The notes beneath the pieces are model-generated. The model was given only the letters and a program-made list of their open reading frames with translations, ran no database searches and was not told the origin of the DNA. Shown here piece by piece: positions 5,826 to 29,331 of a DNA stretch of 50,295 bases. Origin of the DNA: a virus. Position numbers and translations under genes: made by a program. The stretch lies in the IMG/VR virus record IMGVR_UViG_3300045988_134262; one strand, written 5' to 3'. Positions within the stretch are counted from its first letter, which is position 1. Every line of letters starts with the position of its first letter.

Positions 5826-6299
5826 ATGGAAATTATTGAATTAAATATTGATGATTTAAAAGCATATGAAAACAATCCAAGAAATAATGATGAAGCCGTT
5901 GAATACGTTAAAAAAAGCATCAAAGAATTTGGAATGAAAGTTCCTTTAGTTATTGATAAGAATAACGTTATTGTAACAGGTCATACGAGATTAAAAGCAT
6001 GTAAGGAATTAGGTTATAAAAAGATTCCTTGCATTGTTGCTGATGATTTAAATGAGGAGCAAATAAACGCTTTTAGATTGGTGGATAATAAAACAAATGA
6101 ATTTGCATCATGGGATTTTGATAAATTAGAAGAAGAATTAAGTTTAATATCTGATATTGATATGAATGACTTTGGTTTTGAAAGCGCAGAAGATATTGAT
6201 ATTGATGCATTTTTTAGTGATGCAGAACCTACAGAAAGCAAGGAAGAAAAGAAGAAAACTATTAAATGTCCTCATTGTGGAGAAGAGATAGAAATATGA
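5826..6299 (+). CDS. ParB N-terminal (ParB/Srx nuclease-like) domain protein with C-terminal zinc ribbon
   Basis: The core is LKAYENNPRNNDEAVEYVKKSIKEFGMKVPLVIDKNNVIVTGHTRLKACKELGYKKIPCIV. The C-terminus carries CPHCGEEI. Its stop overlaps the next start (ATGA). Confidence 0.75.
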   Translation: MEIIELNIDDLKAYENNPRNNDEAVEYVKKSIKEFGMKVPLVIDKNNVIVTGHTRLKACKELGYKKIPCIVADDLNEEQINAFRLVDNKTNEFASWDFDKLEEELSLISDIDMNDFGFESAEDIDIDAFFSDAEPTESKEEKKKTIKCPHCGEEIEI

Positions 6300-7186
6300 T
6301 TATCTATCTAAGTGGACAAGGTGGGATATTTAATCAATCTTACGAAAAGTGGAAAAGGACTAAAAAAAATATGGATATGTACTTAGTGATAAGTGGAGAG
6401 ACAGGAAACCCTCAAATATGTAAGGAAAAATTAGATATGGAAATATATTTAGCAGGTTCAGAAGCACAAGCAAAACAAATGAATGAGGATAATAAAGATA
6501 ATTTATTTAAAGGAACAAATGTATTGCAATCATATTATTATTGTAACGAATTTACTGAAAAAGTAGTTATACCATCATGTGATAGTTTTATGTTGGATAG
6601 TGGCGCTTTTACATTTTTCTCAAGTGGGAAAAATGTAGATTGGAATGATTATATAGAAAAGTATGCTGACTTTATAGTAAGAAATGATGTTAAACTATTT
6701 TTTGAATTAGATATTGATGTTTTAATTGGATATGAAAATGTATTGCGTTTAAGAAAAAAATTAGAATCATTAACGCATAGAAAATGCATACCTGTTTGGC
6801 ATAGGTCAAGAGGATTAGACGAGTTCATCAAAATGTGCAAAGAATATGATTATGTTGCATTAGGTGGAATAGCAATAAAAGAGATAAGCAGAAAAGAATA
6901 TAAATATTTCCCAAAATTAATTAAAATAGCACATGATAACGGAGCAAAAATTCATGGACTAGGGTTTACTAGTTTAAACGGAATAACTAAATATCATTTT
7001 GATAGCGTTGATAGCACATCATGGGTTAGTGGAAACAGATTTGGAAAAGTTTATAAATTTAACGGAAAAACAATGGTATGGTATGACAAAAAAGAAGGTC
7101 AGCGTTTAGCAGATAGCAGAAAAGTAGCAGTTCATAATTTTAAGGAGTGGGCTAAATTTGCTGAATATGCTAAAAATAATTTATAA
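6296..7186 (+). CDS. dpdA: DpdA-like DNA (7-deaza)guanine transglycosylase (TGT superfamily)
   Basis: TGT-like motifs FMLDSGAFTFF (cf. DSGGFQ), ALGGIA, HGLGFT and HFDSVDSTSW (cf. archaeal-type FDSA). It sits directly upstream of queD-queE-folE. Start taken at the ATG at 6296 (GGAG RBS, ATGA overlap). Confidence 0.65.
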   Translation: MIIYLSGQGGIFNQSYEKWKRTKKNMDMYLVISGETGNPQICKEKLDMEIYLAGSEAQAKQMNEDNKDNLFKGTNVLQSYYYCNEFTEKVVIPSCDSFMLDSGAFTFFSSGKNVDWNDYIEKYADFIVRNDVKLFFELDIDVLIGYENVLRLRKKLESLTHRKCIPVWHRSRGLDEFIKMCKEYDYVALGGIAIKEISRKEYKYFPKLIKIAHDNGAKIHGLGFTSLNGITKYHFDSVDSTSWVSGNRFGKVYKFNGKTMVWYDKKEGQRLADSRKVAVHNFKEWAKFAEYAKNNL

Positions 7187-7214
7187 AAGCATTTAGATGA
7201 AAAAGGAGAAAAAT

Positions 7215-7550
7215 ATGTATTATGTTAAAAAAAGAATTGAAGTAAGTGCTAGTCATAAACTTAACTTAAGTTATGAAAGTAAATGTGAAAATCTACATGG
7301 ACATAATTGGATAATTGATATTTACATGAGAAGCGAAGAATTAAATAAAGATGGAATGGTAATGGACTTTACTCATATTCAAAAAGAAATCAAAGATAAA
7401 TTAGACCATAAGAATTTAAATGATGTTCTTTCATTCAACACAACAGCAGAAAATATTGCAAAGTGGATTGCGGATACATTAGGAGAAAAATGCTATAAAG
7501 TTGATGTGCAAGAAAGCGAAAATAATATTGCAACTTATGAGGTAGAATAA
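7215..7550 (+). CDS. queD: 6-carboxy-5,6,7,8-tetrahydropterin synthase
   Basis: C-x3-HGH motif (CENLHGHNW), MVMDF and LDHKNLND. Size is about 110 aa. Confidence 0.85.
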   Translation: MYYVKKRIEVSASHKLNLSYESKCENLHGHNWIIDIYMRSEELNKDGMVMDFTHIQKEIKDKLDHKNLNDVLSFNTTAENIAKWIADTLGEKCYKVDVQESENNIATYEVE

Positions 7551-7551
7551 A

Positions 7552-8208
7552 ATGAAAGTTAATGAAATTTTTAAAAGCATTGACGGAGAAGGATTAAGAA
7601 CAGGAGAATTAACAACTTTTATCAGATTAGCAGGTTGTAATTTAAGATGCTCATACTGCGATACATGTTATGCATTAAAAAATTCTAATGGAACAGAAAT
7701 GTCTGTTGATGAAATTGTTAAAAGGGCAAAAAAATATGATTATAGAAACATCACATTGACAGGAGGAGAACCACTTATTAATAAAGATGTTGATGATTTA
7801 ATTTCTAAATTATGTGAAAATGGGTTTTATGTAAATATTGAAACAAATGGAAGTGTACCTATTGATAAGTACATTTTAAATAAAAACATTCTTATTACAA
7901 TGGATTACAAACTTCCTTCTAGTGGTGTTGAAAAAAATATGAATTTAAACAACTTAGAAAAATTAAGAGCAAATGATGTATTGAAATTTGTTATTGGAAA
8001 AGATGATTTTGATAAAGTTAAGCAGATAATTGAAAAATATAGAATCAAATCATATATTTATTTAAGCCCTGTCTTTGGTGAAATAGAACCTTTTGAAATA
8101 GTTGATTTTATGAAAATAATGCATACACAAGGAATTGATACGTCAAAAATGAGGGTGCAAGTTCAGTTGCATAAAATCATATGGAATCCAAACGAAAGAG
8201 GTGTTTAA
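7552..8208 (+). CDS. queE: 7-carboxy-7-deazaguanine synthase (radical SAM)
   Basis: N-terminus [14 protein letters not shown], cluster motif [10 protein letters not shown], and LTGGEPL. Confidence 0.85.
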
Positions 8209-8209
8209 T

Positions 8210-8776
8210 ATGGATAAGAAAAAAATTGAAAATGCAGTTAGAGAAATTCTTATTGCAATTGGAGAAAATCCCGATCGTGAAGGATTAATTGAGACACCAA
8301 AAAGAGTTGCCAAAATGTATGAGGAAGTGTTTGAAGGCATTCAATATTCAAATGAAGAAATTGCTAAAATGTTTGATAAAAAATTCAAGCAAGAAGGAAA
8401 TGATTTAGTTTTAGTAAAAGATATCCCATGCTTTAGTTACTGCGAGCATCATATCGCATTAATGTATAACATGAGTATTAATATTGCATATATTCCAAAT
8501 GGTTATGTATTAGGTCTTTCAAAATTTGCAAGAATTTCCGACATGGTCTGCAAAAGATTACAGTTACAAGAAAGAATTGGAACAGACATTGCAGATATTT
8601 TAGAAATGATATTAGGAACTGATGATATTGCAGTTGTAATAAATGGAGAGCATTCTTGCATGACTGCAAGAGGTATTAAAAAACCTAATACGAAAACAAG
8701 AACAGCAACATTGCGTGGAAGATTCAAAGAAAACGCTGAATTAAGAAATGAACTATATAATTTACTTTCTAAATAA
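8210..8776 (+). CDS. folE: GTP cyclohydrolase I
   Basis: [33 protein letters not shown] and HSCMTARG are classic FolE blocks. Confidence 0.9.
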
Positions 8777-11440: not shown

Positions 11441-12316
11441 TTGGACAATGAATTTATTTTGATTGATAGGGTTGATTCTATCAAGAAAGTTATAAACAAA
11501 TATGGAATTGAAAATTTTGTTATTTCATTTAGTGGAGGAAAAGATTCCACTGTATTATCAAAGTTAATTGATATTGCAATACCTAATAATGATATTCCAA
11601 GGGTATTCATAAATACAGGTATTGAATATAAAGCAATTGTTGATTTTGTGCATGAGAATATGAAAAAGGATAAACGATTTATTGAGATTAAACCATCAAT
11701 ACCTTTAAGCATGATATTTAGAAAATATGGTTATCCTTTTAAATCTAAGGAACATAGTCAATTAGTTCATTTATTTCAGCAAAACGGACATAGCAAAACA
11801 ACTCTTAGATATTATAACCCTCCAGAAAATCGCAAGCGTTTTGGTTGCCCTAAAGTATTAAAATATCAATTTGAAGAAGGAACACAACTTAAAATAAGTG
11901 ATAAGTGTTGCACTAAATTAAAAAAAGAACCATTTACAAAATGGCAAGAAGAAAATAGAAAACCTTATAAAATGACAGGAGAAAGACTTTCGGAGGGTGG
12001 TTTAAGAGCATCTCATAAAGGTTGCTTAGTTATTGATAAGAATAGCAAACTAAAGAAATTTAAACCATTGAATCCTGTCACTAGTGAATGGCTTGAATGG
12101 TTTATAAATGAGTATAAAGTTCAATTATGCAAATTATATGATGAACCTTATAACTTTAAAAGAACAGGTTGTTTAGGGTATCCATTTAATATTAATTTGC
12201 AAGATACATTAGATACTTTAGAAAAGACTTTGCCACTTGAGAAAAAGAAAGCAGAAGCAATTTGGAAAGAAGTATATCAAGAGTATAGGAAATTAAATTA
12301 CAGATTAAAAAGGTAA
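11441..12316 (+). CDS. PP-loop ATP pyrophosphatase, PAPS-reductase-like family
   Basis: SFSGGKDST PP-loop, INTGIEY, CCTKLKKEP, TGERLSEGGLRA and KRTGCLGYP follow the PAPS_reduct block order. The only possible start before the PP-loop is TTG at 11441, and it has no clear SD. Confidence 0.7.
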   Translation: MDNEFILIDRVDSIKKVINKYGIENFVISFSGGKDSTVLSKLIDIAIPNNDIPRVFINTGIEYKAIVDFVHENMKKDKRFIEIKPSIPLSMIFRKYGYPFKSKEHSQLVHLFQQNGHSKTTLRYYNPPENRKRFGCPKVLKYQFEEGTQLKISDKCCTKLKKEPFTKWQEENRKPYKMTGERLSEGGLRASHKGCLVIDKNSKLKKFKPLNPVTSEWLEWFINEYKVQLCKLYDEPYNFKRTGCLGYPFNINLQDTLDTLEKTLPLEKKKAEAIWKEVYQEYRKLNYRLKR

Positions 12317-12799: not shown

Positions 12800-13276
12800 A
12801 TGATTAATTGCGAAAGATACATAGATGATATTTTAAAAACTAATAATTGTGATTTTGGATTTAATAAACGTGATAGAAAAATTATAAAATGTGATGCAAA
12901 ATATTGTGATGAATGTTTATTCAATCCGAAAAATTGTGCATATAAATCAACATGTAATGTTTTAAGATTAAAATGGTTGGCTTCTGAAAATAAAGAACCT
13001 ATTAGGTTGAATAGACTTGAATATGAGGTTTTAAAATTCATAGAATTTGGATATATTGCTAGGGATAAAGAAGGAAATTTATTTTCATTTTGGTATAAAC
13101 CAAGAAAATGTAATGATATTTGGGATTGTGATGTTCCTAAGAATCAAAATTATTCACATGATTTAACTTTATTCAATGAATTATTTAAATTTATTAGATG
13201 GGAAGATGCAGAACCAACTTCAATAGAAGAATTATTAAAAAATTGCGAGGTAACTGAAAATGCTGAAAACAGATGA
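12800..13276 (+). CDS. Family A paralog 1 (Cys-rich N-terminus plus conserved W-E/K-D...EP(T/K)SI C-terminal domain)
   Basis: LNRLEYEVLKFI...YIARDKEGNL...LFNELFKFIRWEDAEPTSIEELLKNCEV aligns with four other ORFs. Confidence 0.65.
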   Translation: MINCERYIDDILKTNNCDFGFNKRDRKIIKCDAKYCDECLFNPKNCAYKSTCNVLRLKWLASENKEPIRLNRLEYEVLKFIEFGYIARDKEGNLFSFWYKPRKCNDIWDCDVPKNQNYSHDLTLFNELFKFIRWEDAEPTSIEELLKNCEVTENAENR

Positions 13277-13917: not shown

Positions 13918-13961
13918 ATTAATTATTCTTATGAAAAATGGCGATTATTGGAGGGTTTAAA

Positions 13962-14417
13962 ATGATTAATGCAGAAAAATATAAAAATGAATTAAAATCA
14001 TTAAATGATGCAGATAAATTATGGTGTAGTGCTTTTAATAAATATGATATGACTTTTGACAGTTGTGTAAATGTAAAATGTGAAAATTGTGCATTTAGCG
14101 GTGGCAAAGGTTGCAGGGTAGAACGTTATAATTGGCTATTATCTGAGTATATCGAACATATTGAGGTTAGCGAGTTTGAATATAAGATTCTTAAATATCT
14201 AGCAGATAAAACAAGACATATGTATATCGCAAGAGATAAAAGCGGAAGCCTATATCTCTATGATTCTGAGCCTTGCAAGAGCAACACTAAAAATTTGTGG
14301 ATTGGTAAAGGTACACCACAACTAACACCATTTAATAAACTGTTTAAATTTATCACGTGGGAAGATGATAAACCAACATCAATCAAAGATGTTTTAGATA
14401 ATTGCATTATTAAATGA
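13962..14417 (+). CDS. Family A paralog 3
   Basis: MINAEKYKNEL, a C-x13-C-x4-C-x2-C-x7-C block, YIARDKSGSL and FNKLFKFITWEDDKPTSIKDVLDNC. Confidence 0.65.
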   Translation: MINAEKYKNELKSLNDADKLWCSAFNKYDMTFDSCVNVKCENCAFSGGKGCRVERYNWLLSEYIEHIEVSEFEYKILKYLADKTRHMYIARDKSGSLYLYDSEPCKSNTKNLWIGKGTPQLTPFNKLFKFITWEDDKPTSIKDVLDNCIIK

Positions 14418-16206: not shown

Positions 16207-16375
16207 TGATAAAAAATTGCACTTATTACTTGAAATGATAAATTTTGTAGCAAACTGCAATTATGTGTATTTTAATTGGTATGGAGAAAGATGTAGGTAT
16301 CAGTTAGATTGCAATGAAAAATGTCCATTCTACAATGTTGAAAATATGATGAAATGGGTAAAAGAAGGAGATTAA
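16196..16375 (+). CDS. Small Cys-rich protein
   Basis: GAGGAA RBS. Contains CRYQLDCNEKCPFYN. Confidence 0.5.
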   Translation: MIVNDKKLHLLLEMINFVANCNYVYFNWYGERCRYQLDCNEKCPFYNVENMMKWVKEGD

Positions 16376-16377
16376 GT

Positions 16378-16923
16378 ATGACTAAATTAAATGTAACTAT
16401 TGAGATGGTTAACGGTGATGAATATTTAATTAAAAAAGACTGTTTTAATCCTAATGAGTACATTAAACAAATGAAAGAAAAACTTAAAAATAATGAAGCA
16501 ATTGAAATTCATGAGGATTATGAATTTTGTTGCAATGATAAAGTGGGCTACAGAACAATAAAACCAACAATAGAAGAACCTTTATTAATCAACGCTTCAA
16601 ACATTGTAACTATTGAATTTGAGAAAGAGCAAATTAAAGAAAAGATTAAGTTAACAAAATTTGAACGTGATATATTAAAACATTGCTTATATAAAAATCG
16701 TAATTATATTGCAAGAGATTATAACGATAACCTAAAAGTATATGAGTATCCACCAAAGAAAGATGGAAAAACTTGGGAAAATTTAATTGATTCCGATAAT
16801 TTAAATTTATGTGAAGATATGTTTTTATGCGTATCATGGAATGATGAAGAACCAACATCAATCGCAGAGTTATTAAAAAATTGTGATAAAGATTGCGAGG
16901 TTACTGAAAATGACAGTAAATGA
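16378..16923 (+). CDS. Family A paralog 5 (12536-like N-terminal domain fused to the family A C-terminal domain)
   Basis: The N-terminus is VTIEMVNGDEYLI...INASNIVTIE. The C-terminus is LTKFERDILKHC...YIARDYNDNL...WNDEEPTSIAELLKNC..CEV. Confidence 0.65.
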   Translation: MTKLNVTIEMVNGDEYLIKKDCFNPNEYIKQMKEKLKNNEAIEIHEDYEFCCNDKVGYRTIKPTIEEPLLINASNIVTIEFEKEQIKEKIKLTKFERDILKHCLYKNRNYIARDYNDNLKVYEYPPKKDGKTWENLIDSDNLNLCEDMFLCVSWNDEEPTSIAELLKNCDKDCEVTENDSK

Positions 16924-17492: not shown

Positions 17493-17685
17493 AATTGATA
17501 CTATTGTATGCAATGTTATTGATATGGCAATAGATAATAGATTAATGCTTGATGGAAATGAACCAAGTCAAAATAAAAAAGAAGCATTAAAAATAAGAAT
17601 AAATTATCTAAAGCACCTTTTAAATGATTCAAAAGATGAACTTGATGAGATTGAAAGTCTTGAAGAAATAGAAAAATATATATAG
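17476..17685 (+). CDS. Hypothetical acidic protein
   Basis: GAGGAG RBS. This is the last gene before the ORF-poor region. Confidence 0.5.
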   Translation: MQKMIKIDTIVCNVIDMAIDNRLMLDGNEPSQNKKEALKIRINYLKHLLNDSKDELDEIESLEEIEKYI

Positions 17686-17696
17686 AATATAAGTAT

Positions 17697-17826
17697 ATCC
17701 CTATATTGATGTAAATATTTTTTAAAAATTTAGTTACTTGATCTAATCAAAACAAGACTTATAAGAAAATTCTATTAAATACCCGTTTAGATTCTTTTCA
17801 TTTAATCTCATTGTCAATATAGGGAT
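17697..17826 (+). ncRNA. Stem-closed structured element, unit 1 (candidate ncRNA or DNA structure)
   Basis: A perfect 13-bp closing stem pairs ATCCCTATATTGA (17697-17709) with TCAATATAGGGAT (17814-17826). The internal hairpin AGT-TA-CTTG...CAAG-ACT is conserved in unit 2. Confidence 0.4.
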
Positions 17827-17830
17827 TCAA

Positions 17831-17930
17831 TAACGCATTGATATTTAATTTTTAATATTATTAGTTACCTGCACTAATCAAAACAGGACTTTATGCATTT
17901 TAGATTTACCATCTCATTTTCAATGCGTTA
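17831..17930 (+). ncRNA. Stem-closed structured element, unit 2 (paralog of unit 1)
   Basis: A perfect 11-bp closing stem pairs TAACGCATTGA with TCAATGCGTTA. The internal hairpin AGT-TA-CCTG...CAGG-ACT carries a compensatory T-A to C-G change relative to unit 1. Confidence 0.4.
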
Positions 17931-18016
17931 AATAGTGATGAAAACATAAATAAAGAAGAAGAAAGAAGGAAATCACCTCACAGACTAGATTTCCTATGCT
18001 AGTAATCACTATACAT

Positions 18017-18060
18017 AGAAGGTTGATAAAAAAAACACTCTTCAAAAAAATCAACCTTCT
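18017..18060 (+). other. Long hairpin (10-bp stem, 24-nt loop) closing the structured region
   Basis: AGAAGGTTGA ... TCAACCTTCT followed by TAAATTTTT. Possibly a terminator. Confidence 0.35.
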
Positions 18061-18102
18061 TAAATTTTTAAAAAAATATAAGTATCACACATCGCTTATT
18101 TA

Positions 18103-18111
18103 TGATATAAT
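18103..18111 (+). promoter_or_regulatory. Extended -10 promoter (TGATATAAT) with a degenerate operator-like GTATCACAC upstream
   Basis: Read directly. There is no good -35. Confidence 0.4.
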
Positions 18112-18126
18112 ATATATGAAATAGAG

Positions 18127-18318
18127 GTGATAACATTGAACGAAAAAACAAGCAAAGCACAACTTAAAGCAAGTGCAAAATACAATAAGATGAATACAAA
18201 GAATTTTCCTATAAAAGTAAATAAGAAGACAGAAAAAGATATTTACGATCATTTAGAAAAAATTGGAAATGTTAATGGATATATTAAGAATTTAATTAAA
18301 GCAGATATCGAACGCTAA
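18127..18318 (+). CDS. Small ribbon-helix-helix-like DNA-binding protein (candidate regulator)
   Basis: The pattern KASAKYNKMNTKNFPIKVNKKTEKDIYDHLEKIGNVNGYIKNLIKADI recalls small Firmicute RHH/CopG-like proteins. The start is ambiguous between GTG 18127 and TTG 18136. Confidence 0.45.
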   Translation: MITLNEKTSKAQLKASAKYNKMNTKNFPIKVNKKTEKDIYDHLEKIGNVNGYIKNLIKADIER

Positions 18319-18336
18319 AAAGCGTTCATTTTTTTA
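18310..18336 (+). terminator. Rho-independent terminator
   Basis: GAACGC-taaaaa-GCGTTC followed by ATTTTTTT. It overlaps the stop codon. Confidence 0.75.
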
Positions 18337-18339
18337 TTA

Positions 18340-18438
18340 TGTAAAAAATGTAAAAGAATGAGTAAAGTTCGTTGTAAAAAATGTAATAATATGCATAAAA
18401 TTCGTTGTAAAAAATGTAAAAACATGTATAATATTAAT
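18340..18438. repeat. Three tandem 33-bp repeats (TGTAAAAAATGTAAnAnnATGnnTAAnnTTCGT)
   Basis: Units at 18340, 18373 and 18406, read directly. Confidence 0.8.
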
Positions 18439-18604
18439 TGAGGTGAATAGGACACCTCACTTTGGTCGTCAGTAGTTTGTCGTTTTGGTTTACTTGTTTT
18501 CATTTTGGTTTTGTGTCCTCCAAAACACATGAAAGGGTGATTCCTTTCAAAGGGGCTATATATTATATAGTTCCTTTTTTTGTTGCAAAAATAATCAAAA
18601 ATGC

Positions 18605-18633
18605 TTGATTGTATGTGATACATATAGTATAAT
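18605..18633 (+). promoter_or_regulatory. Conserved early promoter copy 5 (TTGATT-17-TATAAT) with ATGTGATACAT in the spacer
   Basis: Read directly. Confidence 0.65.
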
Positions 18634-18662
18634 AAGTATGTAAAGAAAGAGAGGATATAAAA

Positions 18663-18839
18663 ATGAGAGCAAGAATTTATTTAAATGGAAAGAGAATTAC
18701 AAAAAAGAAAGCAAGGGAATTATTTGGAAATGAAAAAGTAGAAAAAAGAATTCAAGAAGCAGAAGAAAGTTTCATTAATGATCCATATGAAGAAATTTCA
18801 TGGATGGACGGAATGGAAATAAGATTTGTATTTAAATAA
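18663..18839 (+). CDS. Small hypothetical protein (58 aa)
   Basis: Conserved leader with an AGAGAGG RBS. Flanked by a promoter copy and a terminator. Too short for the supplied ORF track. Confidence 0.5.
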   Translation: MRARIYLNGKRITKKKARELFGNEKVEKRIQEAEESFINDPYEEISWMDGMEIRFVFK

Positions 18840-18842
18840 ATT

Positions 18843-18866
18843 AAGGTGAGAAATCACCTTTTTTTA
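18843..18866 (+). terminator. Rho-independent terminator
   Basis: AAGGTGA-gaaa-TCACCTT followed by a T-run. Confidence 0.8.
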
Positions 18867-18877
18867 TTTAAAAAATA

Positions 18878-18905
18878 TTGAAAACATTATGAAAATGAGT
18901 ATAAT
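18878..18905 (+). promoter_or_regulatory. Sigma-A-like promoter (TTGAAA-16-TATAAT) lacking the dyad operator
   Basis: Read directly. It drives the ORF-free segment below. Confidence 0.5.
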
Positions 18906-19176
18906 AATACTTGCAACCAAGAGTTGCAAAGATGCATGTTCTTTTACTCAATTTCTTAAATCATTTTTATATAAGCACTTGAAAATAGTGCTTATAAATA
19001 CACCTATAATTCAATAGTAGAATAATCTCCTTATAAGGGAAATACGGAGGGGCAGAACCTTCTAGGTGTACCATCAATGTATCGTTTTTCATTAGTTTTT
19101 TTCTTAAATTTAGTACGAGGAAAACAGAACACTTTTTTCCAAAAGAAGGCAGTGAAGTTATCACTGTCTTTTTTTT
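18906..19176 (+). ncRNA. Candidate structured RNA or regulatory leader (promoter to terminator, no credible ORF)
   Basis: Hairpins at 18911-18929 (7 bp) and 18971-18995 (9 bp). An 8-bp long-range stem pairs 18999-19006 with 19063-19070. A terminator lies at 19148-19176. Confidence 0.4.
19148..19176 (+). terminator. Rho-independent terminator immediately upstream of the late gene block
   Basis: GGCAGTGA-agtta-TCACTGTC followed by T8. Confidence 0.75.
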
Positions 19177-19276
19177 GTTATTGAAAAATTAAATAATATA
19201 TGTATTCAATTAACAAAATATGATAAAATAATGATGTAAATATGAATAAAAAGGAGATGTGAAAGTATGATGTTTT

Positions 19277-19753
19277 ATGGCTAAGCGTGGAAGAAAAGAA
19301 AAGAAAGAATATATACTTGAAAACCTTGAAGTTATAGAACAAATGGTTTCTAAAGGTTATCCCGAGAAAGATATATGTAAACATCTAGGCATAGGAATAA
19401 GCACATTTTCTAAGTATAAAAAGGAATTAATAGAATTATCAACAGTTCTTAATAAAGCAAAGAAAACAAGGCTTGAAGAACTTGAAAACATCTCTTATAA
19501 AACTGCTATGGGATTTGAATATACAGAAGAAAAAACAATTATTCAATTAGATGAAAATGGGAATCCATCAAGAAGGGTTAAGGAAATTTATAAAAAAAGA
19601 GCGCTACCAAATCCTGCAATGCAACAGTATTTAATGAATAACTGGAGTGATGGAAAATATACTAAAGATCCAATGAACGCTAAATTCAAGGAAGAAGAAT
19701 TAAAACTAAAAAAAGAAGCAAATGAATTAATGAAAGATTGGGATATTGAATGA
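19277..19753 (+). CDS. Terminase small subunit-like HTH protein (alternatively a late regulator)
   Basis: MAKRGRKEK..., the HTH DICKHLGIGISTFSKYKK, then ENISYKTAMGFEYTEEKT...LPNPAMQQYLMNNW. This pattern is common in Firmicute phage small terminases. Confidence 0.5.
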   Translation: MAKRGRKEKKEYILENLEVIEQMVSKGYPEKDICKHLGIGISTFSKYKKELIELSTVLNKAKKTRLEELENISYKTAMGFEYTEEKTIIQLDENGNPSRRVKEIYKKRALPNPAMQQYLMNNWSDGKYTKDPMNAKFKEEELKLKKEANELMKDWDIE

Positions 19754-19827
19754 TTAAAGAAAAGTATTGCTTATATGTTCATACTAATTTGATAAATAAC
19801 AAAAAGTATGTTGGAGTAACAAATTAA
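19750..19827 (+). pseudogene. Truncated GIY-YIG homing endonuclease remnant (25 codons)
   Basis: MIKEKYCLYVHTNLINNKKYVGVTN matches the Y.Y.HTN.iNgKkYvGiT N-terminus and is followed by a stop. A different frame stays open from 19800 to 19970. Confidence 0.5.
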
Positions 19828-19969
19828 AATTAATATATGTAAAACCAAATATAAATTCGATTAATTTATTAATTAGAAGTTATGGACATGAAGAAAAATT
19901 AAAAATGCTAATACATAAATGTGAAAGAGCCAAAAAATATTTAGAAGGATATAAAAAGGAGGTAAAATA

Positions 19970-21070
19970 ATGGAAAACAAAACAGTATACGGAATACAAG
20001 ATAATAAATGCTTAGTTGAAATGTATGATAAAGAAACTATCAACATTAAATCAAGTATGCCTGTTTCTAGCAGAGGTTATATTTTTATCGGTGATTCGTA
20101 CGGAGATGGATATACTCCAGATGGCAGTGGTGGTGGAGTTGGTTGGTGCGATAGGTTAAAATCTAAAATGATTAATTGCCATGCTAATGCTAATAACATT
20201 TTCATCAATCATAAAGGAGGAGCGTGCTTTAGTAATCCATCAAATGATTATTTAACACTTTTAAAAGGTGTAGCAAATCAGATTTCCGACAAAAACATTA
20301 TTACTGATGTATTGATCGGAGGTGGATACAATGAACTGCCATATGGAGACCAAAAAGAAAAAGTGCAAGGTTGTATAAATACATTAATTGATTATGTGCA
20401 AAGCACTTATCCTAACGCAGTTGTTCACTTTGCACCATTCGGAGTTGCATTTAAAAATAGGGATAATCAATTTGCATTGAAATATAAATTGATTCCTATG
20501 TATAGAAGTATATCAGCATATAGTCATAAACCTTATATGGTTGTTCCTGGAGCAGAAAATATTCTTTCATTAAGGGATACAATGAGTTCTGATGGAATAC
20601 ACCCTAATTCATGGGGATTAAGTTGTATAGCAGAATATCTGAAAGGTTATCTCATGGGAACTGGAAGTAATATGCAAGAAAAACGTCAGTTATCTGTCAG
20701 AATGAACGGAGGAACATTCAATGGCACTATATATGGACAATCATTCGGAGATATAAATATTTATAGAATTATGTTTGATAAAGGTGTTAATAATCTAAAT
20801 TCTTACAAAACGAATGGATTTAAACTATATACTCCTAATGATAGAGATGCATTCCCATGGAGAGCGCCTAACTTTGGATATACAAGTAATTATGCAATCA
20901 TATATGGAAATAATGGATGGCATACTGTTCCTGTTAGATTCAACGTAACAAATAATAACGAACTATATATGCAGATATTTCAAACTAATTCAAGTAATAG
21001 TGATTATGAAAGTTATTCAAACATTACTAATATTCAGTTAGATGCATGGATTGTCGCTGAAAATATGTAA
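19970..21070 (+). CDS. SGNH/GDSL hydrolase domain protein with C-terminal extension (probable virion-associated esterase)
   Basis: Block I is FIGDSYGDG and block V is SDGIHPN. Located in the fibre gene block. Confidence 0.65.
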   Translation: MENKTVYGIQDNKCLVEMYDKETINIKSSMPVSSRGYIFIGDSYGDGYTPDGSGGGVGWCDRLKSKMINCHANANNIFINHKGGACFSNPSNDYLTLLKGVANQISDKNIITDVLIGGGYNELPYGDQKEKVQGCINTLIDYVQSTYPNAVVHFAPFGVAFKNRDNQFALKYKLIPMYRSISAYSHKPYMVVPGAENILSLRDTMSSDGIHPNSWGLSCIAEYLKGYLMGTGSNMQEKRQLSVRMNGGTFNGTIYGQSFGDINIYRIMFDKGVNNLNSYKTNGFKLYTPNDRDAFPWRAPNFGYTSNYAIIYGNNGWHTVPVRFNVTNNNELYMQIFQTNSSNSDYESYSNITNIQLDAWIVAENM

Positions 21071-27284: not shown

Positions 27285-27590
27285 ATGACAGAAGAGCAGT
27301 TAAAAAGTATATTTAGCAACTTAGATGATGGAAATAAGGAAGTTTTATCAAGTATGATACCAGATTTTCTTTTTGAACAGGAGCAGATAGAAAAGATTAA
27401 AGAAGCATTATTAAAAATAGGTATTCCAACTAGCAAGTCAAAAGCAGAACAAAAGAAATATCTTTCTAAAGAATATTCAGACTTATCTCAAAGACACGAT
27501 AGCAAGATTAAAATTATACTATCAACTTTAGGTAAGTTTGATGTTAAGGAAGATAGTCCATTGATGGAGATGCTAAAACAGTTTGAGTAA
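27285..27590 (+). CDS. Putative terminase small subunit (call based on position)
   Basis: Lies directly upstream of, and overlaps, terL and follows the HNH gene as in HK97-like cos phages. It has only a weak P27-like PDFL..E motif. Confidence 0.35.
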   Translation: MTEEQLKSIFSNLDDGNKEVLSSMIPDFLFEQEQIEKIKEALLKIGIPTSKSKAEQKKYLSKEYSDLSQRHDSKIKIILSTLGKFDVKEDSPLMEMLKQFE

Positions 27591-29331
27591 GCCTTTATAT
27601 CTCAAGACAAAAGAAACATGGTTGGAAACCTATCAAGATTGCATCAATAAAGGATATATTGATTTATACAATGAGGAAAAAGATGAATACATCAAAACAC
27701 CTTTAATAGTAGGAATGGAAATGAGAAAAGAAATAGATAAATTAGTTGAAGATCTTTCAAATCCTAAATATATCTATGATACAAAAGAAAGTGAAAAAAG
27801 AATTAGATTCAAGGAAACGTGTTGCTTTCAAGGGAAAAAGCCTTTCTTTATGAAGGCTATGAGTTTGATGCTACAGCAAAAAGCATTTTGGGAAGTTGTA
27901 TATAGTTTTAAAATGGCAGATACAGGAATAAGGAGATTTAATGAAGTTCTTGAATTAGTAGGAAGAAAAAACGGAAAATCAACAGACCTTGCAAGTGATG
28001 GAAATTTTGATTTATTTCTTGGCAGTGGTGGTGAGGATATCGTTTGTGCTTCAAATGATGATAAACAGGCTTCTCTTATATGGAAAGAAATAGGAGGTAT
28101 GAGAGGAAGGCTTGATACTAAAAATGAACTCACAAGGCAGAATTTAGCAGAAATAAGAAACGATATAAAGAACATCACAATATTTAAAATGAGTGAAAAG
28201 ACACAAAATAAAGATGGTCGAAATATTGATAAATGCTATTATGATGAAATGCATGATAGCAAGACTAATGAAATATTCATGGCATGTTGGGAAAGTATGT
28301 CCATTAAAGATAATCCGTTACTGATAACAAGTACAACAGAGGGTTTTATAAATGATGGGCTACTTGATGAAAAACTAGAATATGCTAGAGGTGTTTTGAA
28401 TGATGAAATTGATGATGAACATTTCTTGCCATGGTTGTTTACTCAAGATTCAACACAAGAAATATTCCAAGATAAATGGAGTTGGTGCAAATCAAATCCA
28501 TCTTTAATTTATGGAGTAAAGAAATGGTCATTCATTGAAAAGAATATGATTAAGGCTAAGTTATCAAAGTCTTCAAAAGTGCATATGTTATGTAAGGATT
28601 TTAATATCAAGCAGAACAGTGCAGAAGCATGGTTACAAGATGATTGCTTTTACCCTCAAAATATTTATTCACTTGAGGACTTTAAAAACTGCGTAGCAAT
28701 AGCAGGAGCAGATTTATCGCAGACATCAGACTTGACTTGTGTAACTATGATGTTTATGAGACCTAATGACGAGCATAAATATTTCTATAATAAATATTTC
28801 ATTCCCGAAAGCAAATTGGATAGCGATAAAAATGGGGGTGCAAGATATAGAGAGTGGGCGCAAAGAGGGTTTGTTGAAGTCCATGAAGGTAATAGAGTTT
28901 CACTTTCTAAAGTTGCTGAATGGTATTTAAAGGTATTTGAGCAATACAATATTAGAATATTTAAATTAGGATATGACCAACGTTTTGCAAATGATTTCTT
29001 AAATGCTATGAAAGAAATTGGTTACGGATATAAAAAAGGTGAAACTTGCGAAATGATAAATCAGAATAAATATGTAATGAGTACACCAATGAAACATCTT
29101 GAAGCAGACTTAAAATCTCAATATGTTCAAGGACTTAATGAGGTTGACTTGTGGTGTTTCAAAAATACAACTTTTGAAATGGATAACAATGAATTGATAT
29201 TGCCTGCTAAGATGAAAACAGAAATGCGAATTGATGGAACTAGTGCATGCATAGATACTTATGCGATATTATACAGATATGAGAATGAATACATGAAGCA
29301 TGTCAACGAATATAATGGAGGTGTTGAATAG
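27583..29331 (+). CDS. terL: Terminase large subunit (Terminase_1 type)
   Basis: Walker A VGRKNGKST, Walker B-like CYYDEMHD, and a C-terminal nuclease region. The TTG start is inferred because the first in-frame ATG is 43 codons downstream. Confidence 0.85.
   Translation: MSKPLYLKTKETWLETYQDCINKGYIDLYNEEKDEYIKTPLIVGMEMRKEIDKLVEDLSNPKYIYDTKESEKRIRFKETCCFQGKKPFFMKAMSLMLQQKAFWEVVYSFKMADTGIRRFNEVLELVGRKNGKSTDLASDGNFDLFLGSGGEDIVCASNDDKQASLIWKEIGGMRGRLDTKNELTRQNLAEIRNDIKNITIFKMSEKTQNKDGRNIDKCYYDEMHDSKTNEIFMACWESMSIKDNPLLITSTTEGFINDGLLDEKLEYARGVLNDEIDDEHFLPWLFTQDSTQEIFQDKWSWCKSNPSLIYGVKKWSFIEKNMIKAKLSKSSKVHMLCKDFNIKQNSAEAWLQDDCFYPQNIYSLEDFKNCVAIAGADLSQTSDLTCVTMMFMRPNDEHKYFYNKYFIPESKLDSDKNGGARYREWAQRGFVEVHEGNRVSLSKVAEWYLKVFEQYNIRIFKLGYDQRFANDFLNAMKEIGYGYKKGETCEMINQNKYVMSTPMKHLEADLKSQYVQGLNEVDLWCFKNTTFEMDNNELILPAKMKTEMRIDGTSACIDTYAILYRYENEYMKHVNEYNGGVE

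What the first reader, a model, noticed from the sequence alone, without database searches (positions are those of the whole stretch)
18878..19176. Promoter-to-terminator ORF-free structured RNA directly upstream of the late block
A TTGAAA-16-TATAAT promoter without the early dyad operator is followed by about 270 nt containing several strong local hairpins. These are a 7-bp stem at 18911-18929, a 9-bp stem at 18971-18995, and an 8-bp long-range stem TACACCTA/TAGGTGTA (18999-19006 with 19063-19070) enclosing CTCC...GGAG. The segment ends in a clean terminator (19148-19176) about 100 nt before the terS-like gene. It may be a free-standing sRNA. It may instead be a riboswitch- or antiterminator-type leader that gates read-through into the late genes. 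I could not match it to a riboswitch class from memory.
Basis: partly seen in the sequence, partly recalled or inferred. Interest (0 to 1): 0.65.

Follow-up and report, generated by a model that had tools for sequence, protein, structure and literature searches.

The report
Hidden phage isoleucine tRNA gene
The "structured RNA" is a stand-alone phage tRNA gene, most likely an isoleucine tRNA reading the AUA codon, whose unusual but conserved corner ("elbow") hides it from a standard tRNA finder; it is not a riboswitch or a small regulatory RNA.

Summary
The core at 19000-19073 is a complete tRNA cloverleaf. It scores 45.2 bits on Rfam tRNA (threshold 29) and is the only Rfam hit in the window. 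Its anticodon is UAU (Ile, AUA), its discriminator is A, and CCA is encoded.

The unit reads: promoter, 88-nt leader with two hairpins, tRNA, variable trailer, terminator. It recurs in 13 related contigs. In seven of them a canonical tRNA-Pro sits in front of this tRNA.

ARAGORN misses the gene because the elbow is non-canonical. The D loop is AAUAGUA (A18 in place of G18). The T loop is GGCAGAA (G54, G55, G58 in place of U, U, A).

Pattern scans found 38 distinct tRNAs with this elbow in viral and metagenomic contigs. They carry eight anticodons, and several lie in arrays of ordinary tRNAs. The stems covary: 18 of 21 pairs change on both sides. A18 and the variant T loop occur only together.

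AUA is 33% of the phage's Ile codons.

The riboswitch, antiterminator and sRNA readings are not supported. This is a phage tRNA, a known kind, with a variant elbow I found no paper describing.

The parts
18878..18905 (+). Sigma-70-type promoter, TTGAAA-16 nt-TATAAT. The inferred start is near 18911-18913.
   Evidence: Matches 11 of 12 positions, the best in 17500-20500. It is 97-100% identical in 13 related contigs. The start site is inferred from spacing and was not measured.
18912..18999 (+). 5' leader of the tRNA precursor (88 nt). It contains hairpin 1 (18911-18929), a conserved single-stranded spacer, and hairpin 2 (18971-18995). U18999 is base -1.
   Evidence: Both hairpins appear in the minimum-free-energy fold. 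The leader is 86-100% identical in relatives. Changes fall in the hairpin loops, or convert G-C to G.U and U-A to U.G as read on the + strand. The short ORF inside it is cut by a stop codon in relatives. Its function beyond being a precursor leader is not shown.
19000..19073 (+). tRNA gene with anticodon UAU (Ile, codon AUA). Acceptor stem 19000-19006/19063-19069, discriminator A19070, encoded CCA 19071-19073.
   Evidence: Rfam RF00005 scores it 45.2 bits (gathering score 29, E 2.6e-8) across the full model 1-71. It is the only Rfam hit in the window at E <= 0.1. ARAGORN's mitochondrial mode draws the same cloverleaf. Homologues covary in the stems.
19009..19023 (+). D arm AUUC-AAUAGUA-GAAU. 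The D loop is 19013-19019, with A19016 at the place of G18 and G19017 as G19.
   Evidence: Rfam alignment. The D stem changes with compensation to ACUC/GAGU and GCUC/GAGC in relatives. A18 occurs only together with the variant T loop.
19025..19041 (+). Anticodon arm AUCUC-CUUAUAA-GGGAA. The anticodon is U19032 A19033 U19034, with U33, A37 and A38 in place. The 27-43 pair is an A.A mismatch.
   Evidence: Rfam alignment. In close relatives A.A becomes G.U. All five stem pairs change on both sides across the family.
19046..19062 (+). T arm GGAGG-GGCAGAA-CCUUC. The T loop is 19051-19057 and reads G54 G55 C56 A57 G58 A59 A60 in place of U54 U55 C56 R57 A58.
   Evidence: Rfam alignment. The same loop is found in 38 distinct phage tRNA sequences. 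ARAGORN finds none of them.
19074..19140 (+). 3' trailer. Poorly conserved, with no conserved structure.
   Evidence: Relatives have trailers of 36-89 nt that are 43-86% identical to the window and rich in indels. One is a 9-nt indel that begins two bases after the CCA in the 98%-related contig L001.
19141..19176 (+). Intrinsic terminator: a hairpin with GGCAGUGA/UCACUGUC at its core, followed by U8.
   Evidence: Terminator scan: 15 pairs. Present in the minimum-free-energy fold. It is 76-93% identical in relatives, with G.U to G-C changes in the stem.

Best explanation
The segment is a monocistronic tRNA transcription unit of a siphovirus-like phage.

What the sequence and comparisons show:
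- A consensus-like host-type promoter lies at 18878-18905.
- An intrinsic terminator lies at 19141-19176.
- Between them, at 19000-19073, is a complete cloverleaf with anticodon UAU, discriminator A and an encoded CCA.
- The cloverleaf is supported by strong stem covariation.
- The gene sits where relatives carry tRNA arrays.

What is inferred about how it works:
- The promoter drives a precursor of about 265 nt.
- RNase P cuts after U18999 and removes the 88-nt hairpin-bearing leader.
- The 3' trailer is trimmed back to the encoded CCA.
- The resulting 74-nt tRNA is charged with isoleucine and reads AUA. AUA makes up a third of the phage's Ile codons and is more frequent in the structural and late genes.
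- With U34, the tRNA does not need the host's lysidine synthetase TilS.

The tRNA has a variant elbow. A18 replaces G18. The T loop is GGCAGAA, with G54, G55 and G58 replacing U, U and A. G19-C56 and G53-C61 are kept. I infer that A18.G55 and G54.G58 replace the canonical G18.Psi55 and T54.A58 tertiary pairs, so that the L shape is kept.
For: Identity as a tRNA:
- Rfam tRNA scores it 45.2 bits against a gathering score of 29, across the full model.
- It is the only Rfam hit in the 50-kb window.
- ARAGORN's mitochondrial mode draws the same cloverleaf with anticodon tat and a CCA tail.

Stem covariation:
- The alignment holds ten distinct 71-nt homologues. They were collected with patterns that fixed only loops.
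- 98.6% of cells form standard pairs, against 36-50% when the partner strand is slid.
- 18 of 21 pairs change on both sides.
- 0 of 500 shuffles reach the observed values.

Genomic setting:
- In seven relatives a canonical tRNA-Pro(UGG) lies between leader hairpin 2 and this tRNA.
- In contigs of 116 and 163 kb the homologue lies inside islands of 30 and 22 ARAGORN-called tRNAs. None of those is an Ile tRNA.
- Other tRNAs with this elbow score 43-64 bits on Rfam tRNA and lie within arrays of ordinary tRNAs.
- L002, a more distant relative of the neighbouring terS-like gene, carries canonical tRNA-Pro(UGG) and tRNA-Ile(UAU).

Isoleucine identity:
- The body is 73% identical (75-79% for two homologues) to a phage tRNA-Ile(GAU) that ARAGORN calls.
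- It has A73, C4-G69, U12-A23, C29-G41, A37 and A38. From memory these are the E. coli tRNA-Ile identity set.

Codon use:
- ATA accounts for 333 of 1023 Ile codons, or 27 per 1000 codons.
- It runs at 30.6 per 1000 in 19.2-43 kb and 22.7 per 1000 in the rest.

Conservation by segment: promoter 97-100%, leader 86-100%, tRNA 92-100%, trailer 43-86%.

Coupling within the elbow:
- Among phage tRNA(UAU) genes, AAUAGUA with GGCAGAA occurs in 9 contigs.
- AAUAGUA with a canonical T loop occurs in 0, and AAUGGUA with GGCAGAA in 0.
- AAUGGUA with a canonical T loop occurs in at least 120.
- Among 359 tRNAs caught incidentally, G55 goes with loss of the D-loop GG (19 of 28 against 3 of 331; Fisher p = 5.5e-22).

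Literature:
- U34 tRNA-Ile reads AUA in Bacillus subtilis and in Mycoplasma mobile (PMC3919564, PMC3575796).
- Prophages of Latilactobacillus curvatus often carry AUA-reading tRNA-Ile genes and use ATA more than their hosts (PMC10688831).
Against: - There are no expression, processing or charging data. The start site, the RNase P cut and the Ile identity are all inferred.
- Four nearly universal elbow positions (G18, U54, U55, A58) are not met. ARAGORN rejects the gene in normal mode even at relaxed thresholds.
- The isolated 74-mer folds only modestly better than shuffles (z = -1.6).
- The window's own copy has an A.A mismatch at 27-43.
- E. coli IleRS charges a UAU tRNA poorly (PMC3575796). 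Charging therefore depends on an unidentified host.
- The host's own AUA supply is unknown, so the codon-supply argument is only suggestive.
- Sequences in the covariation and contingency tests are not phylogenetically independent. The ten sequences represent roughly five lineages.
- The search patterns fixed the loop sequences, so loop invariance is partly built in.
Confidence: 0.8

Rival explanations
1. It is a tRNA-shaped RNA that does not act in translation. It could be a decoy or replacement substrate against host tRNA-targeting defence nucleases. It could instead be a tRNA mimic bound by a protein, as Y RNAs are bound by Ro60. On this view the altered elbow is the functional point.
For: - The elbow departs from canonical tRNAs at four nearly invariant positions.
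- Staphylococcal non-proteinogenic tRNA-Gly species also lack the canonical G18 G19 / U55 C56 and escape translation (PMC4574755).
- Phage tRNAs are known to counter tRNA-cleaving defences (PMC10264068, PMC11555353).
- Relatives of the neighbouring gene carry Ro60/TROVE-type genes next to tRNAs or to a partial YrlA-like hit.
Against: - The anticodon loop is fully canonical (C32 U33 UAU A37 A38). A discriminator A and CCA are encoded.
- G19-C56 and G53-C61 are kept. From memory, these form the surface read by RNase P and the ribosome.
- The same elbow occurs with eight ordinary anticodons inside ordinary phage tRNA arrays.
- Rfam YrlA gives no hit in the window. No TROVE domain was found among the 45 window ORFs scanned.
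- A role in counter-defence would not exclude decoding.
Confidence: 0.1
2. It is a decaying tRNA pseudogene. The odd D and T loops are accumulated damage in a gene no longer under selection.
For: - ARAGORN rejects it.
- The window copy has an A.A mismatch in the anticodon stem.
- Its Rfam score (45 bits) is lower than that of the canonical phage tRNA-Ile(UAU) in L002 (63.5 bits).
Against: - The same D-loop and T-loop letters recur in 38 distinct sequences from unrelated phages, while all four stems change with compensation.
- The two loop changes are strictly coupled.
- Promoter, tRNA and terminator are conserved, while the trailer beside them is free to vary.
- Random decay would not produce these patterns.
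Confidence: 0.04
3. The segment is a free-standing regulatory sRNA, or a riboswitch- or antiterminator-type leader whose terminator gates read-through into the terS-like and late genes.
For: - It has a promoter and a terminator with no credible ORF between them.
- It lies about 100 nt upstream of the terS-like gene.
- The 88-nt leader with two hairpins is well conserved and has no assigned role.
Against: - The core is a tRNA.
- No riboswitch, T-box or leader family is hit, even at E <= 10.
- The tRNA-to-terminator stretch, which would hold an antiterminator, varies in length from 36 to 89 nt and has no conserved alternative pairing.
- A conserved promoter-like and SD-bearing block lies between the terminator and the gene.
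- In several relatives of the terS-like gene an endolysin gene, not this unit, lies directly upstream. The gene therefore does not need this leader.
Confidence: 0.03
4. It is an attachment-site relic: a tRNA copy carried because the phage integrates into the host's tRNA gene.
For: Many temperate phages integrate into tRNA genes and carry part of them (PMC10688831).
Against: - It is a full-length tRNA with its own promoter and terminator, placed between the early genes and the packaging genes.
- No integrase was found among the ORFs scanned, and every ORF of at least 100 aa that matched a protein family lies on the + strand.
Confidence: 0.02

Closest known systems
Phage-encoded AUA-reading tRNA-Ile genes: T4 tRNA-Ile (CAU), L. 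curvatus prophage tRNA-Ile (CAU, one UAU), and canonical phage tRNA(UAU) genes in IMG/VR
   Same: - It is a single tRNA or small tRNA operon carried by a phage.
- The anticodon is dedicated to AUA, a codon the phage uses heavily (PMC10688831).
- Canonical tRNA(UAU) genes are common in viral contigs. At least 120 contigs carry one with a single D-loop type.
- L002, a relative, carries tRNA-Pro(UGG) plus tRNA-Ile(UAU).
   Different: - T4's tRNA-Ile has a CAU anticodon and a canonical UUCAAAU T loop. It therefore needs lysidine.
- The window's tRNA has U34 and the variant elbow (A18; GGCAGAA). The canonical phage tRNA(UAU) genes lack that elbow.
Bacterial tRNA-Ile(UAU): Mycoplasma mobile tRNA-Ile2 and the Bacillus subtilis tilS-deletion suppressor
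   Same: - The anticodon UAU reads AUA without lysidine.
- In both published cases U34 is unmodified and the ribosome largely avoids AUG (PMC3575796, PMC3919564).
- This shows that a UAU tRNA-Ile can work, including in a Firmicute.
   Different: - Those are cellular tRNAs. In the abstracts I read, neither paper mentions an unusual elbow.
- M. mobile needs an adapted IleRS (Arg865), and E. coli IleRS charges UAU poorly (PMC3575796).
- Whether this phage's host charges the tRNA is unknown.
Non-proteinogenic tRNA-Gly of Staphylococcus (cell-wall glycine donors)
   Same: They are natural bacterial tRNAs that lack the canonical G18 G19 and U55 C56 elbow letters (PMC4574755). They are the closest documented precedent I found for a non-canonical D-loop/T-loop pair outside mitochondria, tRNA-Sec and tRNA-Pyl (PMC7609411).
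   Different: - They have U18/C18 and U19, so they lose G19-C56 as well. They bind EF-Tu weakly and are diverted from translation.
- Here G19-C56 is kept and the two changed tertiary pairs covary. That points to a preserved L shape rather than a disabled one.
T4 tRNA operon with co-transcribed stable RNAs (species 1 and 2, rnaC and rnaD)
   Same: Both are phage tRNA transcription units that also contain conserved non-tRNA structured RNA (annotation). The conserved 88-nt two-hairpin leader here could likewise persist after RNase P cleavage.
   Different: No sequence or Rfam similarity was detected. The T4 RNAs lie 3' of the tRNA-Arg gene, at the downstream end of the annotated tRNA cluster. Stability of this leader has not been tested.
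Y RNA-like RNAs (YrlA) with a tRNA-like domain, partnered with Ro60 (Rsr)
   Same: Both involve a tRNA-like fold in a phage or bacterial non-coding RNA. Ro60/TROVE-type genes and a partial YrlA hit occur in relatives of the neighbouring gene.
   Different: The window has no YrlA hit. No TROVE gene was found. This RNA has a complete anticodon arm and an encoded CCA end.

Membership tests
tRNA (Rfam RF00005) | Cloverleaf with 7-bp acceptor, 4-bp D, 5-bp anticodon and 5-bp T stems, scoring above the family threshold | tested here: met
   45.2 bits against a gathering score of 29, across the full model 1-71. 98.6% of cells are paired and 18 of 21 pairs change on both sides in 10 homologues.
tRNA (Rfam RF00005) | Seven-base anticodon loop with U33 and a purine at 37 | tested here: met
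   The loop is CUUAUAA at 19030-19036, giving C32 U33 U34 A35 U36 A37 A38.
tRNA (Rfam RF00005) | U8, A14, G53-C61, and the outer elbow pair G19-C56 | tested here: met
   U19007, A19013, G19050-C19058 and G19017/C19053 are all present. G52-C62 and G53-C61 are invariant in the 21 aligned family members; the search patterns fixed G53/C61 but not G52/C62.
tRNA (Rfam RF00005) | Canonical elbow letters G18 and U54 U55 (T-Psi) A58 | tested here: not met
   A19016 stands at the place of G18. The T loop GGCAGAA gives G54, G55 and G58. For this reason ARAGORN finds none of the 38 family members. The departures are coupled and conserved, not random.
tRNA (Rfam RF00005) | Discriminator base and 3' CCA | tested here: met
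   A19070 is followed by CCA at 19071-19073. CCA is encoded in most family members.
tRNA (Rfam RF00005) | Location among other tRNA genes in related genomes | tested here: met
   It lies beside tRNA-Pro(UGG) in seven relatives. Its homologue lies inside 22-30-gene tRNA islands in L016 and L021. Other members lie within arrays in L179, L213, L167 and L183.
tRNA (Rfam RF00005) | Processed by RNase P, aminoacylated and used on the ribosome | not testable with these tools
   There are no expression or biochemical data. Base -1 is U in the window and in the 13 contigs that share its module. From memory, this suits bacterial RNase P.
tRNA-Ile, AUA-specific isoacceptor | Anticodon that reads AUA (UAU, or CAU with lysidine) | tested here: met
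   The anticodon is UAU at 19032-19034.
tRNA-Ile, AUA-specific isoacceptor | IleRS identity elements: A73, C4-G69, U12-A23, C29-G41, A37, A38 (the E. coli set, recalled from memory) | tested here: inconclusive
   All are present in the window's copy, read directly from the cloverleaf. They are not conserved across the wider family (for example G4-C69 in L035 and A4-U69 in L036). The host is unknown. The body is 73% identical to a phage tRNA-Ile(GAU).
Riboswitch, T-box or antiterminator leader | Conserved ligand-sensing fold, plus mutually exclusive terminator and antiterminator pairings directly upstream of the regulated gene | tested here: not met
   There is no Rfam hit other than tRNA. The pre-terminator stretch is 36-89 nt long, indel-rich, and 43-86% identical to the window. 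A conserved promoter-like block intervenes before the gene.
Y RNA-like (YrlA, RF02553) with Ro60 | YrlA fold and a neighbouring Ro60/TROVE gene | tested here: not met
   There is no YrlA hit in the window. No TROVE domain was found among 45 ORFs scanned.

The most novel reading that the evidence does not exclude
The A18 / G54-G55-C56-A57-G58 elbow could be a selected, alternative solution to the tRNA corner that phages use repeatedly. I found it with eight anticodon types, and related G55 loops appeared among tRNAs caught incidentally. On this reading its purpose would be to make phage tRNAs independent of host enzymes that read the canonical T loop, or invisible to them. Such enzymes include those that make m5U54, Psi55 and m1A58, and T-loop- or elbow-directed tRNA nucleases used in defence or bacterial competition. 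That would extend the known 'phage tRNAs evade tRNA-targeting defences' idea from the anticodon loop to the elbow.
Probability: 0.2. Interest if true: 0.75.

Novelty: new variant of a known kind. Interest (0 to 1): 0.42.

Why it matters
**For this window.** One unexplained "structured RNA" turns out to be an ordinary kind of gene. The phage carries a single tRNA, and that tRNA matches a codon the phage uses heavily.

**For annotation.** The whole class of tRNAs with this elbow (38 distinct sequences here) is invisible to ARAGORN. The fast, gathering-threshold Rfam scan of the whole window also missed this copy. At least one cultured phage, Edwardsiella phage ET-ABTNL-9, has such a gene left unannotated beside an annotated tRNA-Arg. 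tRNA counts and codon-supply analyses of phages that rely on ARAGORN are therefore biased low.

**For tRNA structure.**
- The strict coupling of A18 with G55, and of G54 with G58, is natural covariation at two tertiary pairs that are treated as nearly invariant.
- It offers a ready-made test of how much the elbow can change while RNase P, EF-Tu, the ribosome and the CCA enzyme still accept the tRNA.
- It also raises the question of whether this change buys phages anything.

Tried and rejected
**Finding the tRNA**
- ARAGORN, both default and relaxed (-ps, -ps80, -ps70), found nothing. Only its mitochondrial mode drew the cloverleaf.
- The Rfam gathering-threshold scan of the whole window found nothing. 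The E-value mode was needed.

**Finding relatives**
- blastn of 18600-19400 against cultured phages gave no match.
- A back-translated search with the terS-like protein in viral contigs gave no relatives.
- An exact 36-mer of the tRNA gave none either. Relatives came from protein homologues and from degenerate loop patterns.
- blastn of family members against cultured phages mostly returned canonical tRNAs.

**Corrections and flawed runs**
- I had assumed T4 tRNA-Ile has a UAU anticodon. The T4 record shows CAU with a canonical T loop.
- The anticodon-agnostic viral scan had its spacing set one base too long. It caught only tRNAs with 5-nt variable loops. It still showed that the elbow is not Ile-specific.
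- MAFFT misaligned family members with longer D loops (A2). I therefore used the gap-free subset A3 for pair counts.

**Alternatives checked and dropped**
- A peptide encoded in the leader: the 16-codon ORF at 18933 is cut to 4 codons in relatives.
- A Ro60/Y-RNA connection: no TROVE gene and no YrlA hit in the window.
- An attP relic: no integrase found.

**Literature**
- Six full-text searches found no paper describing a GGCAGAA T loop or A18/G55 coupling. The library is incomplete, so this is not proof that none exists.
Full report
**Checking the observation**

- TTGAAA-16-TATAAT lies at 18878-18905. It is the best promoter-like match in a 3-kb scan, at 11 of 12 positions.
- A 15-pair hairpin with a T run lies at 19141-19175.
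- Terminator-like sites are far above chance in this region (9 found, 0.5 expected). Promoter-like sites are not (19 found, 21.4 expected). The promoter call therefore rests on its conservation, described below.
- RNAfold of 18912-19176 gives -65.9 kcal/mol, z = -5.1.
- Only short ORFs of 21-65 aa overlap the segment.

**What the core is**

A relaxed Rfam scan of 18600-19400 returns tRNA (RF00005) at 19000-19070 on the + strand. The score is 45.2 bits against a gathering score of 29, with E = 2.6e-8, across the full model. In an E-value scan of the whole window this is the only hit at E <= 0.1. The default gathering scan and ARAGORN had both missed it.

The cloverleaf reads as follows.
- Acceptor stem: ACACCUA/UAGGUGU.
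- D arm: AUUC-AAUAGUA-GAAU.
- Anticodon arm: AUCUC-CUUAUAA-GGGAA, with anticodon UAU at 19032-19034.
- Variable loop: AUAC.
- T arm: GGAGG-GGCAGAA-CCUUC.
- Discriminator A19070, followed by an encoded CCA at 19071-19073.

CTCC and GGAG belong to two different arms and do not pair with each other. ARAGORN rejects the gene even at relaxed thresholds, and only its mitochondrial mode draws the same cloverleaf. The cause is the elbow. The D loop has A where G18 should be. The T loop reads G54 G55 C56 A57 G58 instead of U U C R A.

**Genome context**

The window is a siphovirus-like phage genome.
- The large terminase is at 27583-29331. Its best match is 50% amino-acid identity to Butyrivibrio phages.
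- Portal, capsid and tail genes follow. An amidase endolysin is present.
- Replication and recombination genes are present.
- A 7-deazaguanine pathway cluster is present.
- No integrase or TROVE domain was found among the ORFs scanned.
- The gene starting at 19277 matches PHROG 309, terminase small subunit (E 4e-19).

**Relatives of the module**

Homologues of the terS-like protein and degenerate loop patterns recovered 13 contigs that share the whole module. Identity to the window, by segment:

| Segment | Identity to window |
|---|---|
| Promoter | 97-100% |
| 88-nt leader | 86-100% |
| tRNA | 92-100% |
| Trailer | 43-86% (length 36-89 nt) |
| Terminator | 76-93% |

- Leader changes fall in the hairpin loops, or turn G-C into G.U and U-A into U.G on the + strand. 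That pattern fits an RNA structure on that strand.
- In seven relatives a canonical tRNA-Pro(UGG), which ARAGORN calls in some of them, sits between hairpin 2 and this tRNA. The leader therefore precedes whichever tRNA comes first.
- In the 98%-related contig L001 the sequence is identical from the promoter through CCA. A 9-nt indel begins two bases after the CCA.
- A conserved block follows the terminator. It holds TGATAAAAT, a strong ribosome-binding site, and a five-codon upstream ORF that overlaps the terS-like start codon.
- In other relatives of the terS-like gene an endolysin gene lies directly upstream instead.

These facts argue against a read-through gate.

**The wider family and covariation**

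A viral-contig scan that fixed only the anticodon loop and the T loop gave 28 hits. Fourteen form cloverleaves, as seven distinct sequences. All seven have UAGU in the D loop, although the pattern did not require it.

A metagenome scan gave 25 contigs, and all of them form cloverleaves.

Ten distinct 71-nt members align without gaps. On the cloverleaf:
- 98.6% of cells pair, against 36-50% for slid controls;
- 18 of 21 pairs change on both sides;
- 0 of 500 shuffles reach these values.

The ten sequences represent roughly five lineages, so the counts overstate the number of independent events. Even so, every helix shows full compensatory replacement.

In contigs of 163 and 116 kb the homologue lies within islands of 22 and 30 ARAGORN-called tRNAs, none of which is an Ile tRNA.

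That is about the chance level, and none forms a cloverleaf.

**The elbow is a coupled variant, not damage**

For phage tRNA(UAU) genes, the four combinations of D loop and T loop give these contig counts:

| D loop | T loop GGCAGAA | Canonical T loop |
|---|---|---|
| AAUAGUA (A18) | 9 | 0 |
| AAUGGUA (G18) | 0 | at least 120 |

- The elbow is not specific to Ile. An anticodon-agnostic scan found it with UAC, CAU, UGU, GUG, GUU, GAA and UCC as well.
- In a sample of 16 loci, Rfam scores these tRNAs at 43-64 bits inside arrays of ordinary tRNAs. One subgroup with an aberrant D arm falls below E 0.01.
- ARAGORN finds 0 of the 38 distinct members.
- A strict cloverleaf parser found 359 distinct tRNAs that no pattern had targeted. 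G55 occurs in 19 of the 28 that lack a D-loop GG, and in 3 of the 331 that have one (Fisher p = 5.5e-22). The sequences are not independent.
- Other G55 loops appear, including GGCGGNA, UGCAAYU and AGCGUUA. Positions 54 and 58 appear as U..A, G..G and A..U.
- I infer that A18.G55 and G54.G58 replace G18.Psi55 and T54.A58 by using the same base edges. This is chemistry-based inference and was not tested.
- One cultured phage, Edwardsiella phage ET-ABTNL-9, has an unannotated tRNA(CAU) with this elbow beside its annotated tRNA-Arg.

**Likely function**

ATA makes up 333 of 1023 Ile codons in 55 ORFs, or 27 per 1000 codons. It runs at 30.6 per 1000 in the 19.2-43 kb block and 22.7 per 1000 elsewhere.

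Several points support an isoleucine identity.
- The tRNA body is 73% identical to a phage tRNA-Ile(GAU) that ARAGORN calls. Two homologues reach 75% and 79%. That tRNA itself has G54..G58 with a normal G18 and U55.
- The window's copy has A73, C4-G69, U12-A23, C29-G41, A37 and A38. From memory, these match the E. coli Ile identity set. They are not conserved across the wider family.
- Published work shows U34 tRNA-Ile reading AUA in B. subtilis and in M. mobile. Charging depends on the IleRS (PMC3919564, PMC3575796).
- Prophages of L. curvatus often carry AUA-reading tRNA-Ile genes (PMC10688831).

The best-supported reading is therefore a phage-supplied, TilS-independent tRNA-Ile for AUA, made from its own promoter. 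Transcription start, RNase P and 3' processing, charging and decoding are all inferred.

**Rivals**

- A non-translational tRNA mimic or anti-defence decoy cannot be excluded (0.1). The fully canonical anticodon loop, the CCA end, the retained G19-C56 pair, and the presence of the same elbow in ordinary tRNA arrays make it less likely.
- A pseudogene (0.04) is contradicted by the coupled, conserved loops and by the compensated stems.
- The sRNA, riboswitch or antiterminator reading (0.03) lacks any family hit and any conserved switch region.
- An attP relic (0.02) lacks an integrase and any cellular tRNA carrying the same loop pattern.

**Comparison with known systems, and novelty**

As a phage tRNA gene this is a known kind. 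T4's tRNA-Ile, checked directly, has CAU and a canonical T loop.

The variant elbow is the unusual part. A review of non-canonical tRNAs covers Sec, Pyl and mitochondrial tRNAs but has no phage case (PMC7609411). Staphylococcal non-proteinogenic tRNA-Gly lose G18 G19 / U55 C56 altogether (PMC4574755). Papers on phage tRNAs and defence discuss anticodon loops and do not mention the T loop. My searches found no description of A18/G55 coupling, but the library is incomplete.

I rate this a new variant of a known kind, with moderate interest. The main practical point is that such tRNAs go unannotated.

Noticed in passing
window 19247-19294: A strong ribosome-binding site (AAAGGAG) serves a five-codon upstream ORF, ATGATGTTTTATGGCTAA. 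Its last codons overlap the ATG (19277) of the terS-like gene, which has no ribosome-binding site of its own. The arrangement is conserved in relatives as ATGATGTTGAATGTCTAA. This suggests translational coupling through a leader mini-ORF.
   Followed up: partly
window 18578-18861: A compact cassette of promoter (TTGATT-17-TATAAT at 18605-18633), 58-aa ORF (18663-18839) and terminator (18843-18860) is present here and in several relatives. It is absent from the 98%-related contig L001 and from L185, where the upstream terminator abuts the tRNA promoter. It behaves like a small insertable moron. The ORF has no family match.
   Followed up: partly
window 6266-8776 and 11441-12316: A 7-deazaguanine (queuosine-type) pathway cluster. 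It comprises a Tgt/DpdA-like ribosyltransferase (6266-7186), QueD-like (7197-7550), radical-SAM QueE-like (7552-8208), GTP cyclohydrolase I (8201-8776), and a PAPS-reductase/NAD-synthase-like protein (11441-12316). It probably modifies the phage DNA.
   Followed up: no
window 12800-13276, 13938-14417, 16354-16923: Three paralogous ORFs all match the same PHROG of unknown function, phrog_22292. This is a small gene family within the early region.
   Followed up: no
window 19750-19827, compared with L001 3256-3900 and L011 3450-4058: Relatives have a GIY-YIG-type endonuclease gene of 202-214 aa overlapping the end of the terS-like gene. The window keeps only a 25-aa ORF at that spot, followed by a GDSL-lipase gene (19970-21070). 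This looks like a truncated or replaced homing endonuclease.
   Followed up: no
L002 169-2101; L006 1-1400: Two relatives of the terS-like gene carry Ro60-type genes beside RNA genes. In L002, tRNA-Pro(UGG) and a canonical tRNA-Ile(UAU) lie just upstream of a TROVE + vWA_Ro60 gene. In L006, a DUF2828/DUF7788 gene is followed by a 1-kb gap holding a partial YrlA (Y RNA-like) hit of 36.9 bits, below the gathering score of 69.
   Followed up: partly
L187 1497-1571 (Edwardsiella phage vB_EtaM_ET-ABTNL-9, MN399336.1): An unannotated tRNA(CAU) with the same variant elbow (D loop AAUAGUG, T loop GGCAGAA) and an encoded CCA lies directly after the annotated tRNA-Arg(TCT). Rfam tRNA scores it 43.7 bits.
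   Followed up: yes
L237 292-368 (Alcaligenes phage vB_Af_QDWS595, OK149171.2): Another unannotated tRNA(CAU) in a cultured phage. Its non-canonical T loop is different: AUCGAAA (A54, A60), with a normal GG D loop.
   Followed up: partly
viral and metagenome loci L014-L041 and L162-L360 (all fetched loci except the genome-scan set L042-L161): Among 359 distinct strict cloverleaves not targeted by any search pattern, about a tenth have non-UUC T loops. Classes seen are G55 loops (GGCGGNA, UGCAAYU, AGCGUUA, CGCRAUA) without a D-loop GG, C55 loops (UCCGANU) with GG, and A54 loops (AUCGWWA) with GG. Non-canonical elbows seem fairly common in phage tRNAs. The sample is biased.
   Followed up: partly
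L035, L036, L162, L171-L174, L180: A subgroup of the UAU/GGCAGAA family has G8 A9 and an aberrant D arm (AGCU-GGUAGUCU-AGCG). Its acceptor, anticodon and T stems covary. However, the three members included in the Rfam scan (L162, L173, L174) were not reported as tRNA at E <= 0.01.
   Followed up: no
L215 2053-2318; L173 498-705; L167 589-792: Other RNA hits in contigs that carry variant-elbow tRNAs: a cyanobacterial-type or permuted tmRNA (75.1 bits), a group I intron at threshold (50.2 bits) next to tRNAs, and a sub-threshold RNase P-like hit (51 bits against 84).
   Followed up: no
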